From the NCBI GenBank assembly GCA_963708395.1, contig CAVPSG010000001.1, positions 271,434-335,433 on the forward strand: a DNA stretch of 64,000 bases, given 5' to 3'. Shown one piece after another: positions 37,557 through 41,545 of the stretch. The position numbers and the translations under genes are program-made. This DNA comes from an uncultured Acidobacteriota bacterium. GTDB lineage: Bacteria; Acidobacteriota; Thermoanaerobaculia; UBA5066; Gp7-AA6. Below the pieces are notes generated by a model. That model searched no databases. It saw only the letters and a list, made by a program, of their open reading frames with translations, and was not told the DNA's origin. Within the stretch, counting starts at the first letter, position 1; the number at the start of each line of letters is the position of its first letter.

Positions 37557-37610
37557 CTGACCCCGCGGCGCCCGTAACGCCATCCCACTCTCTTTTTCAG
37601 CAACCTGCTA
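37557..37610. repeat. Solo copy (inverted) of the stop-codon-abutting module seen at 14018-14070
   Basis: The reverse complement TAGCAGGTTGCTGAAAAAGAGAGTGGGATGGCGTTACGGGCGCCGCGGGGTCAG compares with TAGCGGGTTGCTGAAAAAGGGTGTGGGATGGCGTTACGAGCGCCGGGGGTCAG. Its TAG is the stop codon of the gene at 37608-38189. Confidence 0.75.
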
Positions 37611-38189
37611 TCGCTGCCTCCCTCTCGGGTTTCCTCCGGCTCGACCCTCGTCCCCTCGCCGGAGCCACCACCAGATCGCAAACGGGGCCGCAAAGCGTCC
37701 GGCGACCTCGTAGAAGTGGAAGCCGCCCGCCCAGAAATTGCGCGCCACCGCGCCGTAGCGCTCCGCGCTCCACGGCCCGAGAGCCGTCGCATAAACGGAG
37801 CGCACCTGGAAAACCAGGGCGGCAACGTGCACGGCGAACAGGACGAGACATCCGAGAAGCAGCGCGCCGACGCGCTTTCCGTGGAGCGGATGCGGGTCGA
37901 GAGCGAAGAGCGCGACGAGAAGGACCAGGTTGAAATGGATGTCCGCGGCCGGCAGCCCGGGCCGGGGCGAGCCCGGCGGCAGGTCGGCGCGCTCGACGAG
38001 AATCTCGCCGCCCGCCGCCGCGAGTCGCGTGACGGCGGGCCGCTCGGTCGCGCGCAGGACCGCCTCCGCGGCGGACGCGAGGAGGCGCTCGTAGGGCGCG
38101 CCGAAGCCGAACCAGAAGGCGAGCGCGAGAACGAAGCCCGTGAGCGCGCGCAACACCGCGGCGCGGCCGAGACCGCGGCGGTATTTCAC
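37608..38189 (-). CDS. Polytopic membrane protein translationally coupled to the exosortase-like gene
   Basis: Frame of ORF 37608..38822. GTG 38189 overlaps the upstream stop (GTGA). VKYRRGLGRAAVLRALTGFVLALAFWFGF.., about 5 TM segments. Confidence 0.6.
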   Translation of the reverse strand: MKYRRGLGRAAVLRALTGFVLALAFWFGFGAPYERLLASAAEAVLRATERPAVTRLAAAGGEILVERADLPPGSPRPGLPAADIHFNLVLLVALFALDPHPLHGKRVGALLLGCLVLFAVHVAALVFQVRSVYATALGPWSAERYGAVARNFWAGGFHFYEVAGRFAAPFAIWWWLRRGDEGRAGGNPRGRQR

Positions 38190-38725
38190 TGCCGCCGTTC
38201 GGCGGCGGCCGGCCCGGCCGGGCGCGCCCGCGCTGCCCAGGAGAGGAAGAGGAGCACGCCGAACAGCACGACGAGCGACTGCCAGAGCACCGTGTGCGAG
38301 GCGGAGAAGAGCGCGGGCCGGTGGACGCCGATCCAGAAGAGCGAAACGACGCGGACGAGATTCACGAGCTCGATCGCGGTGAAACCGAGGAGGAGACCGG
38401 CGAGACGCCGCTTCCAGGGCGCGGGAAACGAGAGGACCGCCGCGGTGAAGAGGAGCACGGTCTCCAGGCCGTTGCACCCGTTCTCGATCTGCACGGCGAA
38501 CGCGGGCGCGCGAATCTCGGTCCCGGCGACGGCGGCCGGCTCCCCGAGCGCGTTCAGGATCGCGCCGGAGACGCGGGCGATCGCCGCCGTGAAGGGCACC
38601 ACGACGGCGTCGTTCATCGGACGAAGCGCGATCGCGACGTAGAAGAGGACGAGCAGAACGCCGAAACACGCGAGAAAGGCGAGAGACTCGCGGCGGTGGG
38701 ACGGGGAGCCCGGTTCCGCCTTCAT
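38186..38725 (-). CDS. Short exosortase/archaeosortase-family protein (179 aa)
   Basis: Frame of ORF 38186..39118. ATG 38725 overlaps the thioesterase stop (ATGA). Cys-Arg-His pattern: IENGCNGLE, ELVNLVRVV, SASHTVLW. About 5 TM segments. Confidence 0.65.
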   Translation of the reverse strand: MKAEPGSPSHRRESLAFLACFGVLLVLFYVAIALRPMNDAVVVPFTAAIARVSGAILNALGEPAAVAGTEIRAPAFAVQIENGCNGLETVLLFTAAVLSFPAPWKRRLAGLLLGFTAIELVNLVRVVSLFWIGVHRPALFSASHTVLWQSLVVLFGVLLFLSWAARARPAGPAAAERRQ

Positions 38726-39189
38726 CCCGCGACGGGACGCGCCGCGGGCTGGGAGTCGAGGATCTCGCGGACGAGGCGCGCGATCGGCGCGGGAAGCGCG
38801 AGGAGCAGCTCTCCCCGCGCATTCAGGACGACCTGCTCCGTCTCGGCCGTCGCCAGGAGCCGGCCCGGGGCGTCCCGCAGCTCGTAGTCGAGGACGATGC
38901 GCGCGGCCTCGGGCTCGCGCAGGCGCGCGGTGGCGCGCACGGTCGTGTCCGCGAGGATCGCCTGCCGGTAACGGATCTCCATGCGAGTGATCGGGACGCG
39001 ATAGCCGAGCGCCAGCGAGCGCGTCGCGGTGAATCCGTGCGCGCCGGTCAGGGCCTCGCGAACCTGCTCGAGGTAGAGCGCGTAGTGGCCGTGCCAGACG
39101 ACGCCGTAGGCGTCGCACTCGGCGAATCGGACGGGGATGTCGATCGAGAATCCCCCGAGCGGCGGCGCCTCGGGGCGCGCGCGCGTCAT
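38722..39189 (-). CDS. Acyl-CoA/acyl-ACP thioesterase, 4HBT (YbgC-like) hot-dog fold
   Basis: C-terminal part of ORF 38722..41517, starting at MTRARPEAPPLGGFSIDIPVRFAECDAYGVVWHGHYALYLE.. . ATGA overlap with the upstream gene. Confidence 0.75.
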   Translation of the reverse strand: MTRARPEAPPLGGFSIDIPVRFAECDAYGVVWHGHYALYLEQVREALTGAHGFTATRSLALGYRVPITRMEIRYRQAILADTTVRATARLREPEAARIVLDYELRDAPGRLLATAETEQVVLNARGELLLALPAPIARLVREILDSQPAARPVAG

Positions 39190-40329
39190 GGCGTCGCTCC
39201 GTTGGAGACGGCCTCGACGACCGCGGCGAGGAAGTTGCCGCCGGCGCCGAAGGAGTTCACGAGCGCGCGCCGCGGCCGATCGTTTCCGGCGAACGGCCCG
39301 TCCGGATCGGCGACGGCGCGGCAGGCGGCGACGAGCTGCCCGCCGCCGGACGCCGCCATCTCTCCGACTGCCCGCTTGACCTCGATCTGCGGGGGCGGCG
39401 ATCCGAAGAGGCGTGCGAGGGCCTCCGCCTCCGCGGAGTCCATTTCGTCGACGCCGTCGCGGGAAGGGAAGATCAAGCCGACGTCCGCCGGAGAGGCGCC
39501 CGCATCCTCGAGCGCCCCGGACATGGCGCGCGCCATCGCGTCGGGATCGGGCGCGAACCGGTAGGGATCGGTCGGCACGCCGGCGACGGCGAGCCCCGCG
39601 AGGCGCGCGAGGGGCCGCCCGCCGCGATTCCGCGCGGAGGCTTCGTCCTCGAGCAGGAGCGCGAAGGCGCCCTCGCCCTGCACGATCCCGGAGGACTTCT
39701 TCTGGCCGCGGAGCGCGCTCACGCGGTCGAATCCGAGCGCGTAGTACGGGTTCCACTCGTCCACGCCCCCGGCGAGCATCGCCCGCGCGCGCCCGGCGGA
39801 GATCGCGAGCGACGCGAAGAGAAGCGCATTCAGAGCCGACGGGTCCTTCTGCGTGACGGTGACGTTCGGGCCGTAGACTTTGAGCTCGATCGAGACCTGT
39901 GAGGCGGGCGCGTTGGCGACCGTGTTGGGGAAGTGGAACGGCGGCGCCGCCTCGGGCGACTCGGTGAGGAGGACGCGCAGGAACTCCGTCAGCGCCCCGG
40001 CGCCTGCCGATCCCGTGCCGAGCGCGATTCCGATCGACTCGGGATCCTTCGCGACGTCGTAGCACGCTTCCGCGATCGCCTGCGCGCACGCGACGATCGC
40101 GAACTGGCTTCCGCGGTCGAACCGGCGGGCCTTCATCGGCGGGATCTCCGGCTGCGGCGTGAAGCCGTCGCACCGCGCGACGTGCGTGGCCTGGAGTCCC
40201 TTGCGCTCGTCTTCCGTCATCGGACGGACGGCGCTCTCTCCCGCGAGCAGCCGCCGGTAGAACTTCCGGCGCCGATCGCCCGAGCGGGCAGACGGCTCCG
40301 GTGCCGGTGAAGACGCCGCGCGAAGGCAT
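39186..40329 (-). CDS. Beta-ketoacyl synthase-like protein lacking the catalytic Cys (chain-length-factor-like); 1 frameshift near 40258-40270
   Basis: ORF 39186..40220 plus the N-terminal piece MPSRGVFTGTGAVCPLGRSAPE (ATG 40329), joined by a shift to FYRRLLAGESAVRPMTEDE.. . The active-site position reads GPNVTVTQKDPS instead of TACxSS. Confidence 0.7.
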
Positions 40330-40337
40330 GCGACGGC

Positions 40338-41545
40338 TCAGGCGCGCGCCAGGACGACGACCGTGCTGTTGCCCCCGAACGCGAACGAGTTCGAGAGCGC
40401 GACGCGCACGTCCGCCTCGCGCGCCGCGTTCGGGACGTAGTCGAGGTCGCACGCCGGATCGGGGTTCTCGTAGTGGATCGTCGGCGGGACGATCCCTTCG
40501 CGGATCGTGAGCGCCGTGGCGACCGCCTCGATCGCGCCCGACGCGCAGAGGCAGTGCCCGATCATGGACTTGATCGAGGAGACCGGGATCCTCCGCGCCC
40601 GTTCGCCGAGGCCGGTCTTCAGCGCCGCCGTCTCGGCGGAGTCGTTCTGCGGCGTCGCCGTGCCGTGCGCGTTGACGTAGTCGACCCGCGTCGGCGTCGA
40701 TTCCGGCCGACGCGAGAGCGGCGCGCACGGTCCGGCCGCCGGCCGCCCCCGAAGGGTCCGGCGCCGTCATGTGGTACGCGTCGGAGGTCACGCCGTAGCC
40801 GAGGAACTCCGCGACGATCGGCGCTCCGCGGCGACGCGCGCGCTCCTCCTCCTCGAAGACGAGGATGCCGGCGGCCTCGCCGATCGAGAGGCCGCGACGC
40901 TCGCGATCGAACGGGCGGCAGGGATCGGGATCGACGGATCGCAGCGAATTGAACCCCCCGTACGTGAGGCGCGCGAGCACGTCCGAGCCGCCGGTCAAGA
41001 CACGTCCGCGAGGCCCGATGCGATGGCGTCGAAGGCGTATCCCATCGCGTTGGCCGAGGACGAGCAGGCGGTCGTGATCGTCGACTTGATGCCCTCGAGG
41101 CTCCAGTGCTGCGCGACGCGGTCGGTGATCGCGTCGGGCAGGTGGTTGAGGACGCGCGACGGGCGCGCCTTCCGGCCCTGAAGGTGCCGCGCGAAGAACT
41201 CCTCCGAGTCGAGGAGGCCGGACGTCCCGCCGCCGAGGATCACGCCGACGCGCGTCGGATCCTCGCGCGAGAGGTCGAGCCCGGCCGCGGCGATCGCCTC
41301 GGACGCGGCGGCGATACCCATCCGGTCGGCGCGGGACATCCGGCGCTTCTCGACGGGGGAGAGGACGCCGTCGGGGATCTCCCGGACTTCCGCGGCCGTC
41401 TGCGTCCGGTAGGTCGAGGCATCGAAGAGGGAGAGGGGGCGGATGCCGCAGACGCCCGCGGTCAGGTTCTTCCAGAACTCGGCGCACGCTCGTGCCGATC
41501 GCCGTCACGGCGCCCAATCCCGTTACGACGACGCGGCGTCCCCAT
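40338..41545 (-). pseudogene. Beta-ketoacyl-ACP synthase (FabF/KS-alpha-like), at least 4 frameshifts
   Basis: The pieces lie in different frames: RVVVTGLGAVTAIGTS; AEFWKNLTAG..TITTACSSSANAMGYAFDAI (ORF 40995..41339); [65 protein letters not shown] (ORF 40338..40565). Breaks are near 40687, 41002, 41485 and 41525. Confidence 0.8.

What the first reader, a model, noticed from the sequence alone, without database searches (positions are those of the whole stretch)
37608..41545. Operon coupling a KS/CLF-like ketosynthase pair and a hot-dog thioesterase to a short exosortase-family protein
Five minus-strand genes are chained by ATGA/GTGA overlaps or short gaps. They are KS-alpha (TACSSS active site), a KS-beta/CLF-like protein lacking the Cys, a 4HBT thioesterase, and a 179-aa exosortase/archaeosortase-like protein. 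The fifth is a small polytopic membrane protein. The exosortase-like protein has a Cys-Arg-His pattern (NGCNGLE, NLVR, SASH). No ACP, reductase or dehydratase is present, and no PEP-CTERM-type substrate gene is visible in the window. A polyketide or fatty-acyl synthesising pair tightly coupled to a protein-sorting transpeptidase suggests acyl or lipid attachment linked to sorting. The KS-alpha gene carries at least 4 frameshifts as given, so the operon may be decaying or poorly sequenced.
Basis: partly seen in the sequence, partly recalled or inferred. Interest (0 to 1): 0.6.

Follow-up and report, generated by a model that had tools for sequence, protein, structure and literature searches.

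The report
Ketosynthase trio joined to exosortase H
In this soil acidobacterium a known two-gene protein-sorting cassette (exosortase H and its membrane partner) is transcribed behind a three-gene fatty-acid-type enzyme set, but relatives keep the two parts apart, so the link to lipids is a lead, not a finding.

Summary
The five minus-strand genes are real and tightly chained. They are a FabF-like ketosynthase (Cys-His-His), a triad-dead partner (Cys->Gln), a hotdog thioesterase, exosortase H (TIGR04177, 122.9 bits against a cut-off of 86) and an XrtH-associated-type membrane protein.

They form two separable modules. The ketosynthase trio is found almost throughout the order (59 of 61 genomes). 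XrtH and its partner always travel together, and a complex model supports their binding (ipSAE 0.77, best control 0.05).

The two modules are adjacent in 25 of 52 relatives that have both, all in one family. The cassette lies elsewhere in other genera and even in two species of the same genus. XrtH is also common in the phylum where no trio ortholog was found.

Canonical IPTL-CTERM cargo occurs in relatives. This genome has one cupredoxin with an IPAL-type tail.

The frameshifts (four in KS-alpha, one in KS-beta) are assembly errors. Same-genus orthologs are intact, short-read contigs from four metagenome runs lack the indels, and neighbouring unrelated genes in the same 7.7-kb patch are broken in the same way.

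This scan found the same operon three times before on other DNA, and I reach the same reading. Lipid-linked sorting remains an untested possibility.

The parts
40338..41551 (-). KS-alpha: FabF-like beta-ketoacyl-ACP synthase with the Cys-His-His triad. As given it is broken by four 1-bp indels (about 41544 +1, 41483 +1, 41001 -1, 40691 +1).
   Evidence: The frames were read and the indels located against the G008 ortholog. Intact 410-aa orthologs exist in G008 and G002. The G008 ortholog scores 424.3 bits on NF005589 (cut-off 387) and 424.6 on the fabF equivalog (cut-off 493.75). The best solved relatives are FabF enzymes at 1e-103. The triad is shown.
39186..40329 (-). KS-beta: a catalytically dead FabF-like partner (Cys->Gln, His->Ser/Ala, His->Glu) with a deletion of about 20 residues near the C-terminus. 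One 1-bp insertion at about 40265 cuts off the first 35 codons.
   Evidence: Searches give the frames and the indel. Pfam hits are PF00109/PF02801. On fabF it reaches only 118-141 bits. Orthologs occur in 59 of 61 relatives.
38722..39141 (-). Hotdog-fold (4HBT, YbgC/FadM-like) thioesterase, 139 aa.
   Evidence: PF13279 scores 53.3 bits (cut-off 25.5) and PF03061 scores 36.3. TIGR00051 scores 45.5, below its cut-off of 68.7. It follows KS-beta in all order loci read except G052, and in G043 an insert separates the two.
38186..38725 (-). Exosortase H (XrtH), 179 aa, with catalytic Cys84, Arg125 and His144.
   Evidence: TIGR04177 scores 122.9 bits against a cut-off of 86. It is the only copy in the genome. 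The triad is invariant in 23 of 23 sequences. It passes the cut-off in 53 of 61 relatives.
37608..38189 (-). XrtH-associated-type membrane protein, 193 aa. The model shows four long helices plus a small beta-sheet domain.
   Evidence: NF041730 gives E 5.8e-7 and 29.4 bits (cut-off 35), covering positions 4-182 of 184. The nearest ESM Atlas clusters carry PF28117 XrtH_assoc on 10-37% of members. It lies next to XrtH in 20 of 20 loci and in 12 of 12 loci of the class outside the order. The structure model has pLDDT 90.5. The complex model with XrtH scores ipSAE 0.77 against a best control of 0.05.
36417..37505 (+). Flank: FHA plus Fis-type HTH regulator (sigma-54-activator relatives in other families), convergent with the operon. 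It is the most widely conserved neighbour of both modules.
   Evidence: Searches give the gene. Homologs lie next to the TE or next to the XrtH pair throughout the order and in G215.
41560..42038 (+). Flank: dCMP/cytidine deaminase-type gene, divergent from KS-alpha. It carries two compensating 1-bp indels (41781, 41804) that garble 8 residues.
   Evidence: It is conserved next to KS-alpha in the order.

Best explanation
The operon is one transcription unit made of two separable modules.

Module 1 is KS-alpha, KS-beta and the TE. It is an accessory fatty-acid-synthase-type set, separate from the housekeeping fabH...acpP-fabF cluster. I infer that an active FabF paralog pairs with a triad-dead, Cys->Gln partner as a KS/chain-length-factor-like heterodimer. 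I also infer that this heterodimer works on the cell's general ACP and that the hotdog thioesterase releases or edits the acyl product. The product is unknown.

Module 2 is XrtH plus its partner. It is the known exosortase H cassette. A Cys-Arg-His membrane transpeptidase, predicted to sit in the membrane against its four-helix partner, would cleave IPTL-CTERM-type tails from secreted proteins. Here the one candidate is a cupredoxin with an IPAL tail.

The two modules share an old chromosomal neighbourhood (dCMP deaminase | trio | FHA regulator | SMC). In one family they became a single operon with overlapping stop and start codons. Co-transcription is inferred from these overlaps. Functional dependence is not shown, and the distribution argues against an obligatory one.

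The frameshifts are errors of a long-contig assembly.

The trio is accessory:
- fabF (639.8 bits), acpP and fabH lie together at C2:2334319-2339482.

A solved and assayed precedent for the KS pair:
- An active FabF with a dead FabF forms a KS/CLF-like heterodimer that decarboxylates malonyl-ACP. This is the anammox pair (bioRxiv 10.64898/2026.05.19.726425, abstract read). Its chains 9s5h_B and 9s5h_C match KS-alpha at 4.8e-98 and 1.4e-64.

Module independence:
- Adjacent in 25 of 52 relatives with both, all in family f1, and in 0 of 20 in families f2 and f3.
- In G003 and G010 (same genus) and in G012, G013, G017 and G024, the TE is followed directly by the regulator, without XrtH.
- The relocated cassettes lie in different contexts.
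- Six order genomes have KS-beta but no XrtH found. Three of them are 94-96% complete.
- XrtH passes its cut-off in 32 of 301 phylum genomes. KS-beta matches of 48% identity or more occur only in the 6 genomes of the order.
- In 20 of the 21 XrtH loci read outside the order, no KS was found within about 6 kb.

XrtH-partner unit:
- Adjacent in 20 of 20 loci and in 12 of 12 class loci.
- Complex model ipSAE 0.77 (median of 3 runs), best of 3 controls 0.05. That mark was reached by 116 of 157 solved complexes and 2 of 215 mismatched pairs. The runs share at least 88% of their contacts and partner pLDDT is at least 81. The interface includes XrtH residues 82-83 and 142-143, which flank Cys84 and His144.

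Cargo:
- TIGR04174 passes its cut-off in G016, G040, G047 and G057, with clear tails.
- G000 has a cupredoxin (PF00127) with a signal peptide, a Pro/Thr linker and an IPAL + TM + RPR tail. The tail is conserved in G008 and G002.

Frameshifts are errors:
- Orthologs are intact in G008 and G002.
- At each of the six sites, every one of four metagenome runs whose contigs cover the site shows the opposite indel state (table 4). One example is a 405-nt piece with 2 substitutions and exactly the 2 gaps.
- Indels against G008 cluster at 40.2-47.9 kb and at 1-2.7 kb, and they hit unrelated genes.
- The genome is 4.5 Mb in 3 contigs yet only 58.7% 'complete' by marker genes.
Against: - The fused order is stable. 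It is kept in 69 of the 80 nearest XrtH loci, down to about 59% XrtH identity, with gaps of 150 nt or less. This could reflect selection for co-expression.
- In families of f2 (G043, G053, G057, G059) the two modules still lie 9-21 kb apart on one contig. The neighbourhood is therefore old.
- In another order of the class (G297, G271) a 4HBT thioesterase lies convergent right next to the XrtH pair. It is the best match to this TE in those genomes, at 30-34% identity.
- Two further XrtH loci have phospholipid-type neighbours: a CDP-alcohol phosphatidyltransferase (L105) and a PLD-domain protein (L106).
- Synteny of lipid genes with an archaeosortase did predict a real functional link in archaea (PMC7157517, abstract and section list read).
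- The heterodimer, the use of the general ACP and the product are inferred, not tested.
- TIGR04174 finds no cargo over its cut-off in G000 or G002. An HMM built from relatives' tails also finds none in G000 (best E 0.83). The cupredoxin was picked by a pattern scan and by eye.
- The partner scores below its NCBIfam cut-off.
Confidence: 0.65

Rival explanations
1. Functional coupling. The KS-alpha/KS-beta/TE set makes a dedicated fatty acyl or lipid that XrtH, with its partner, uses as the acceptor or anchor when it cleaves the IPTL-CTERM tail. The operon would then be a lipid-linked protein-sorting system.
For: - The TE and XrtH overlap as ATGA.
- The fused order is kept in 69 of the 80 nearest loci.
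- The modules remain within 9-21 kb in some f2 genera.
- A TE homolog lies next to the XrtH pair in G297 and G271.
- Phospholipid genes lie beside XrtH in L105 and L106.
- Precedent: artA-pssA-pssD synteny, and the need for PssA and PssD in ArtA-dependent lipid anchoring (PMC7157517, abstract read).
Against: - The cassette lies away from the trio in 27 of 52 relatives with both, including one same-genus species. It lies at at least four different places in family f1.
- The trio is present without a detectable XrtH in 6 order genomes.
- XrtH passes its cut-off in 26 phylum genomes outside the order, all without a KS-beta match of 41% identity or more.
- Genomes with separated modules (G040, G047, G057) have canonical IPTL-CTERM cargo.
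- The TE and the KS proteins are cytoplasmic enzymes with no dedicated ACP, ligase or acyltransferase to pass a product to a membrane enzyme.
Confidence: 0.18
2. Only the thioesterase is tied to the sorting cassette, for example by acting on a thioester or acyl intermediate or on a lipid donor. The KS pair would be an unrelated upstream neighbour.
For: - In G297 and G271 the KS pair lies on another contig without a TE beside it, while the TE homolog sits next to the XrtH partner.
- In G043 the TE stays on the XrtH side of a 7-kb insert that separates it from KS-beta.
Against: - Where the cassette has moved (G003, G012, G013, G017, G024, f3, and g13 and g17 of f2), the TE stays with the KS pair, not with XrtH.
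- The G297 and G271 TE is only 30-34% identical, and it represents one lineage.
- In G315 and G196 the best TE match is not near XrtH.
Confidence: 0.07
3. The operon is decaying. KS-alpha and KS-beta would be true pseudogenes in this strain.
For: As given, the sequence has five frame-breaking indels in the two KS genes.
Against: - Contigs of four metagenome runs that are 95-99+% alike carry the intact state at every site they cover.
- There are no in-frame stops other than those caused by the shifts.
- The same kind of 1-bp indel hits the dCMP deaminase, a YdjM-like hydrolase and an M1 peptidase in the same 7.7-kb patch. Long stretches elsewhere are clean, for example the 3.5-kb SMC gene.
- Marker-gene completeness is 58.7% for a 3-contig genome.
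Confidence: 0.03

Closest known systems
Exosortase H system (NCBIfam TIGR04177 XrtH; NF041730 / Pfam PF28117 XrtH-associated membrane protein; TIGR04174 IPTL-CTERM sorting domain)
   Same: - The XrtH model is passed and the Cys-Arg-His residues are present.
- The protein is minimal, at about 170-180 aa.
- The partner gene lies immediately downstream.
- IPTL-CTERM-tailed proteins occur in related genomes.
- An IPTL-CTERM domain is reported on the S-layer protein of Methylomirabilis lanthanidiphila (PMC8671808, one passage read).
   Different: - Here and in most of one Thermoanaerobaculia family, the cassette is the tail of a KS/KS/TE operon.
- The partner scores under its curated cut-off.
- In this genus no protein passes TIGR04174. 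There is only one cupredoxin with an IPAL/IPAF tail.
- I found no experimental paper on XrtH itself.
Anammox amxFabF2/amxFabFmut heterodimer (bioRxiv 10.64898/2026.05.19.726425; PDB 9s5h/9s5i appear to be its chains, judged by name and match only)
   Same: An active FabF homolog sits next to a FabF homolog with a dead triad, in a fatty-acid rather than an aromatic polyketide setting. KS-alpha matches 9s5h_B at 4.8e-98. The abstract reports a KS/CLF-like heterodimer that decarboxylates malonyl-ACP.
   Different: - There is no ladderane cluster, no radical-SAM genes and no dedicated ACP here (for the ACP; the flanks were read).
- Heterodimer formation by this pair was not tested here.
- The dead partner here has Gln at the Cys position, like polyketide CLFs.
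Type II polyketide synthase KS-alpha/KS-beta (chain length factor), e.g. actinorhodin 1tqy
   Same: The two KS genes are adjacent. The second has Gln in place of the active-site Cys. 1tqy_A and 1tqy_B are among the matches.
   Different: - Both proteins are nearer to FabF than to the actinorhodin pair. For KS-alpha the values are 1e-103 against 1.4e-77.
- No ACP lies in the window.
- The pair is a core, syntenic feature of an order rather than part of a variable biosynthetic island.
ArtA with PssA/PssD in archaea (PMC7157517)
   Same: A sortase-family membrane enzyme whose gene neighbourhood contains lipid-synthesis genes. In that case the neighbours proved necessary for lipid anchoring of the substrates (abstract and section list read).
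   Different: Those neighbours make a phospholipid head group (archaetidylethanolamine pathway), not an acyl chain. No experiment exists for XrtH. Here the neighbourhood is not kept across lineages.

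Membership tests
Exosortase H (TIGR04177) | Score over the curated cut-off of the XrtH model, across its full length | tested here: met
   122.9 bits against a cut-off of 86, covering profile positions 3-154 of 158. 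The next best family is XrtX at 69.8 bits against a cut-off of 170.
Exosortase H (TIGR04177) | Conserved Cys, Arg and His of the exosortase/archaeosortase superfamily | tested here: met
   C84, R125 and H144 are invariant in 23 of 23 aligned XrtH sequences. The signature model TIGR04178 scores 54.3 bits against a cut-off of 23.
Exosortase H (TIGR04177) | Cognate IPTL-CTERM (TIGR04174) cargo in the same genome | tested here: inconclusive
   No match passes the cut-off in G000 (best 14.5 bits) or in G002. Four of 5 relatives have matches over the cut-off. One G000 cupredoxin has an IPAL + TM + basic tail, found by pattern scan, and it does not hit TIGR04174.
XrtH-associated membrane protein (NF041730 / PF28117) | Score over the curated cut-off | tested here: not met
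   29.4 bits against a cut-off of 35, with E 5.8e-7 over profile positions 4-182 of 184. The Pfam copy used has no such model. The nearest ESM Atlas clusters carry PF28117 on 10-37% of members, with a score of 0.95. I call it XrtH-associated-type and do not file it as a member by score.
XrtH-associated membrane protein (NF041730 / PF28117) | Encoded immediately next to XrtH | tested here: met
   GTGA overlap here. Adjacent in 20 of 20 order loci, in 12 of 12 class loci outside the order and in 76 of 80 nearest loci (the other 4 are cut off or ambiguous).
FabF, beta-ketoacyl-ACP synthase II (TIGR03150 equivalog) | Score over the equivalog cut-off | tested here: not met
   The intact G008 ortholog of KS-alpha scores 424.6 against a cut-off of 493.75. 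It passes the subfamily model NF005589 (424.3 against 387). The housekeeping fabF scores 639.8 elsewhere in the genome. KS-beta scores 118-141 bits.
Type II PKS KS/CLF pair | KS-alpha with Cys-His-His and an adjacent KS-beta with Gln in place of Cys | tested here: met
   Alignment of 3 KS-alpha and 5 KS-beta sequences.
Type II PKS KS/CLF pair | Dedicated ACP encoded with the pair | tested here: not met
   The genome has 5 PP-binding matches and none lies in the window. The flanks are a deaminase and a regulator.
Anammox-type FabF/FabFmut heterodimer | The two proteins form a heterodimer that decarboxylates malonyl-ACP | not tested
Activity is not testable with these tools.
YbgC/FadM acyl-CoA thioesterase (TIGR00051) | Score over the subfamily cut-off | tested here: not met
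   45.5 bits against a cut-off of 68.7. The Pfam superfamily models 4HBT_2 and 4HBT are passed. It is a hotdog 4HBT-type thioesterase of unassigned subfamily.

The most novel reading that the evidence does not exclude
In Thermoanaerobaculia the accessory KS/dead-KS/thioesterase set supplies a special acyl chain or lipid that the XrtH-partner membrane complex attaches to IPTL-CTERM proteins, or needs in order to release them. If so, this would be the first genetic handle on the unknown acceptor of bacterial exosortases. The operon fusion in one family, and the thioesterase beside XrtH in another order, would be traces of that dependence.
Probability: 0.12. Interest if true: 0.75.

Novelty: new variant of a known kind. 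Interest (0 to 1): 0.36.

Why it matters
Exosortases are widespread, but what they attach their substrates to is unknown. In archaea, gene neighbourhood was the clue that tied archaeosortase A to phospholipid synthesis.

A lineage in which exosortase H is co-transcribed with acyl-chain enzymes is a cheap place to test whether a lipid is involved. The system is small: two membrane proteins with a confident predicted interface, a single small cupredoxin cargo candidate in this genus, and three soluble enzymes.

Even if the link is accidental, two things are of use. The first is an order-wide accessory FabF/dead-FabF(Gln)/thioesterase set outside anammox bacteria. The second is a predicted XrtH-partner heterodimer whose interface flanks the catalytic Cys and His.

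The finding also flags that this assembly has error patches that break genes. Any pseudogene call made on it should take that into account.

Tried and rejected
- **Cargo search by models.** TIGR04174 finds nothing over its cut-off in G000. An HMM I built from 17 relatives' tails, run on all ORF C-termini of G000, gives a best E of 0.83 and no convincing hit. It even missed the cupredoxin that a simple TM-plus-basic-tail pattern scan found.
- **Fold of the partner protein.** The model is confident (pLDDT 90.5). Foldseek against the PDB gives no match at E<=0.001. VIA-align against 48,161 chains gives a best Z of 6.4, among unrelated helical bundles. No fold assignment was made.
- **Trio as a substitute for FabH.** Rejected, because fabH is present over its cut-off in all 5 genomes tested.
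- **Sampling XrtH in other phyla.** The search for related loci returned only the 80 nearest loci, all labelled Acidobacteriota or Thermoanaerobaculia, out of 475 relatives found. Co-occurrence outside the phylum was therefore not tested.
- **The search for homologous proteins on KS-beta.** The 120 hits listed are all close relatives at 72% identity or more, so the search gave no breadth.
- **Literature.**
  - 'exosortase H' / 'XrtH': 11 papers, none on the system apart from a tool preprint that mentions the name (listing only).
  - 'IPTL-CTERM': 1 paper.
  - 'exosortase' + 'ketoacyl' + 'thioesterase': 1 unrelated genome survey (listing only).
- **My crude GC3-based gene caller.** It misses frameshifted and some membrane genes, so gene lists of the flanks are incomplete.
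- **Two XrtH rows.** The L100 and L107 pieces contained a stop and were dropped from alignment A3.

Full report
**What is there.**

The window is about 70% G+C, so most long ORFs are spurious. The true frames had to be picked by family hits and by orthologs. Between 37608 and 41551 the minus strand holds five genes.

KS-alpha has TACSSS, HGTAT and GHCL, which form the Cys-His-His triad. The next gene, KS-beta, aligns with it at 28-30% identity. It has Gln, Ser (Ala in family f2) and Glu at the three catalytic positions in all 5 orthologs aligned, and a deletion of about 20 residues near the C-terminus.

The third gene is a 139-aa hotdog thioesterase (PF13279 53.3 bits, PF03061 36.3 bits).

The fourth, 179 aa, is exosortase H. 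TIGR04177 scores 122.9 bits against a cut-off of 86 over positions 3-154 of 158, and every other exosortase model is far below its own cut-off. Cys84, Arg125 and His144 are invariant in 23 of 23 sequences.

The fifth, 193 aa, matches the 'exosortase H-associated membrane protein' model NF041730 over nearly its whole length, but at 29.4 bits, under the cut-off of 35. The nearest ESM Atlas clusters carry PF28117 XrtH_assoc on 10-37% of their members.

The TE and XrtH overlap as ATGA, and XrtH and its partner overlap as GTGA. The other gaps are 44 and 8 nt. The operon is bounded by a divergent dCMP-deaminase-type gene and a convergent FHA/HTH regulator.

**The frameshifts.**

Against the same-genus genome G008 (93.8% DNA identity over the operon) the window has 1-bp indels at these sites:
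- 41544, 41483, 41001 and 40691 in KS-alpha;
- 40334 in the spacer;
- 40265 in KS-beta.

The orthologs in G008 and G002 are intact at 410 aa and about 380 aa.

I laid Logan contigs of four metagenome runs on 40150-41600. At every one of these sites, each run that covers the site shows the opposite indel state: 40263 and 40334 in 4 of 4 runs, 40692 in 3 of 3 covered, 41000 in 2 of 2, and 41483 and 41544 in 2 of 2. The only mixed depth is at 40334 in X1 (11.4 of 13.5). The pieces are otherwise nearly identical, for example 405 nt with 2 substitutions and exactly the 2 gaps (tables 4 and 8). One of these runs may be the sample of origin, which would make the point stronger, not weaker.

Over the whole window, the indels against G008 that are not multiples of three cluster at 1-2.7 kb and at 40.2-47.9 kb. 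They also break the deaminase (two compensating shifts), a YdjM-like hydrolase and an M1 peptidase. By contrast, the 3.5-kb SMC gene and the stretch 49-57 kb are clean.

The assembly is 4.5 Mb in 3 contigs but scores 58.7% marker completeness. I read the frameshifts as patches of unpolished long-read sequence, not as decay.

**Who else has it.**

Record titles and source names place the lineage in Thermoanaerobaculia, Acidobacteriota.

In 61 genomes of the genus, family and order (G000 included):
- XrtH passes its cut-off in 53.
- A KS-beta ortholog is found in 59.
- Both are found in 52. They are adjacent in 25 of these, all in family f1 (25 of 32 there), and in 0 of 20 in families f2 and f3.

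These tallies include the genomes the tool flags as unpublished: G005 and G022 (adjacent), G042 (separate) and G020 (KS-beta only). No statement rests on them alone.

I read the loci for 5 of the 7 non-adjacent f1 genomes (G003, G012, G013, G017, G024). In each, the TE is followed directly by the regulator, and the XrtH-partner pair lies elsewhere. G014 and G029 have the two modules on different contigs and were not inspected.

G003 belongs to the window's own genus. So does G010, where the trio locus has no XrtH and no XrtH was found in the genome (65% complete).

The relocated cassettes lie in different surroundings. In G017 and G024 they sit between MarC and UvrA. In G013 they sit between TPR/HhH proteins and a hydrolase. 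In G003 and G012 they lie in neither of those contexts. In f3 the cassette lies between guaA and dnaE. In g13 and g17 of f2 it lies between a Big_7 secreted protein and an S41 peptidase.

In G043, G053, G057 and G059 (f2) the pair sits next to the regulator with a divergent histidine kinase, and the trio is 9-21 kb away on the same contig.

The block 'deaminase | KS-alpha KS-beta TE | regulator' is the order-wide constant.

Among the 80 XrtH loci nearest to the window's in species-representative genomes, 69 have the TE within 150 nt upstream, one has it 2.5 kb away, and 10 have none within the sequence held. Of those 10, L201 has only 69 nt upstream. This sample is biased towards family f1 and overlaps the G-handle sample.

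**Wider distribution.**

In 301 genomes drawn from the phylum, XrtH passes its cut-off in 32. KS-beta matches of 48% identity or more occur only in the 6 genomes of the order. All other matches are 40% or less. Some of these are ordinary FabF paralogs. One of them (G297) is a real but distant dead-KS pair with Glu at the Cys position.

Six order genomes have the trio but no XrtH found: G007 (94% complete), G044 (96%), G052 (96%), G010, G018 and G020.

Of 21 XrtH loci read outside the order, the partner is next to XrtH in all 12 from the class. The neighbours are mostly housekeeping or regulatory genes (SMC, Ser/Thr kinase, FHA proteins, pyrimidine genes), and no KS was found within about 6 kb in 20 of the 21. 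In three genomes of other classes the gene after XrtH is instead a protein ending in a SEC-C motif.

Four neighbours run against a pure 'no link' reading:
- In G297 and G271 a 4HBT thioesterase lies convergent right after the partner. It is the only or best match to this TE in those genomes, at 30-34% identity.
- In L105 a CDP-alcohol phosphatidyltransferase lies two genes downstream of the partner.
- In L106 a PLD-domain protein is divergent from XrtH.

**What each module probably does.**

The trio is not the cell's fatty-acid synthase. fabH, acpP and a fabF scoring 639.8 bits lie together on another contig, and fabH is present in all 5 genomes tested.

KS-alpha passes only the FabF subfamily model. 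Its best solved relatives are FabF enzymes (1e-103), followed by chain B of 9s5h (4.8e-98). A 2026 preprint reports that an anammox FabF and a triad-dead FabF form a KS/CLF-like heterodimer that decarboxylates malonyl-ACP (abstract read).

By analogy I infer a KS-alpha/KS-beta heterodimer that uses the general ACP, with the thioesterase releasing or proof-reading the product. None of this was tested, and the product is unknown.

For module 2, the complex model supports a membrane heterodimer of XrtH and its partner:
- ipSAE 0.77 (median of three runs; 0.75-0.78), against 0.05 for the best of 3 controls.
- That mark was reached by 116 of 157 solved complexes and 2 of 215 mismatched pairs. These counts hold only roughly, because I used my own alignments.
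- The runs share at least 88% of their contacts, and partner pLDDT is at least 81.
- The contacts include XrtH residues 82-83 and 142-143, which flank the catalytic Cys84 and His144.

I know of no solved exosortase complex. That is recalled, not searched.

The partner folds confidently (pLDDT 90.5) but matches no solved fold.

**Cargo.**

TIGR04174 finds tails over its cut-off in 4 of 5 relatives tested, including G016, which has the fused operon. They read (I/V)P(T/A/S)L-x3-L, then a hydrophobic helix, then Arg/Lys, often after a Pro/Thr-rich linker. None passes in G000 or G002.

A pattern scan of all ORF ends in G000 gave 39 TM-plus-basic tails. One of them has an IPAL motif. It belongs to a 167-aa cupredoxin (PF00127) with a signal peptide and a Pro/Thr linker. 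The tail is kept in G008 (IPAL) and G002 (IPAF). This is one candidate, chosen by eye.

**Verdict.**

The operon is a lineage-specific joining of two modules that share an old neighbourhood and that separate freely. The evidence therefore favours co-transcription without obligatory functional dependence (0.65). Lipid-linked sorting remains a minority reading (0.12-0.18).

I found no paper describing this gene arrangement (searches; library limits apply). Three earlier follow-ups of this scan reached the same reading on other genomes.

- the read-level resolution of the frameshifts;
- the within-genus split (G003, G010);
- the order-wide synteny frame;
- the thioesterase next to XrtH in a second order;
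- the cupredoxin cargo candidate;
- the predicted XrtH-partner interface.

Noticed in passing
G000 contig C2, locus L080:2129-2632 (minus): A 167-aa cupredoxin with a signal peptide, a Pro/Thr-rich linker and an IPAL + hydrophobic helix + RPR tail. It is the only IPTL-CTERM-like tail I found in this genome. The tail is conserved in G008 and G002, but the ortholog in G003 continues into a different C-terminal extension.
   Followed up: partly
G000 contig C3, two neighbouring minus-strand ORFs ending at reverse-strand positions 357020 and 357850: Two adjacent proteins end in LPKTG- and LPRTA-type motifs followed by a hydrophobic helix and Arg-rich tails. These are sortase (LPXTG)-like signals in an acidobacterium. 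I did not search for a sortase.
   Followed up: no
window 1-2700 and 40200-47900: Patches dense in 1-bp indels relative to the same-genus genome G008. They split the dCMP deaminase (41781/41804), a YdjM-like hydrolase (42865-43932) and an M1 aminopeptidase (43905-47163). The stretches 32.5-36 kb and 49-57 kb are clean. Any pseudogene call on this assembly needs a check.
   Followed up: partly
L099 (G297) 5353-5664 and L102 (G271) 7135-7446: In another order of the class, a 4HBT thioesterase lies convergent directly after the XrtH partner. It is the best match to this operon's TE in those genomes, at 30-34% identity. The dead-KS pair of G297 lies on another contig, without a TE beside it.
   Followed up: partly
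L117:5415-6149, L118:6352-7062, L119:6359-7048: In three genomes of other acidobacterial classes the gene next to XrtH encodes a protein of about 230-245 aa that ends in a SEC-C motif, instead of the four-helix partner seen in the class of the window.
   Followed up: no
L105:4101-4787 (G126) and L106:6610-10152 (G225): Phospholipid-type genes lie beside the XrtH pair. One is a CDP-alcohol phosphatidyltransferase two genes downstream on the same strand. The other is a large PLD-domain protein, divergent from XrtH. Neither is conserved in sister genomes.
   Followed up: no
window 32526-37505; L104, L106, L109, L103: SMC and an FHA-domain regulator recur next to the XrtH pair across the class. 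The regulator is a full sigma-54 activator in some families and a short FHA + HTH form here. This is an old synteny that may point to how the cassette is regulated.
   Followed up: no
G002:C1:1305711-1306940, G016:C2:6556-7785, G040:C1:1587822-1589051, G047:C1:631639-632871: There is a third FabF-like paralog (about 422-430 bits on fabF, below the cut-off) besides the housekeeping fabF and KS-alpha. It was not detected in G000.
   Followed up: no
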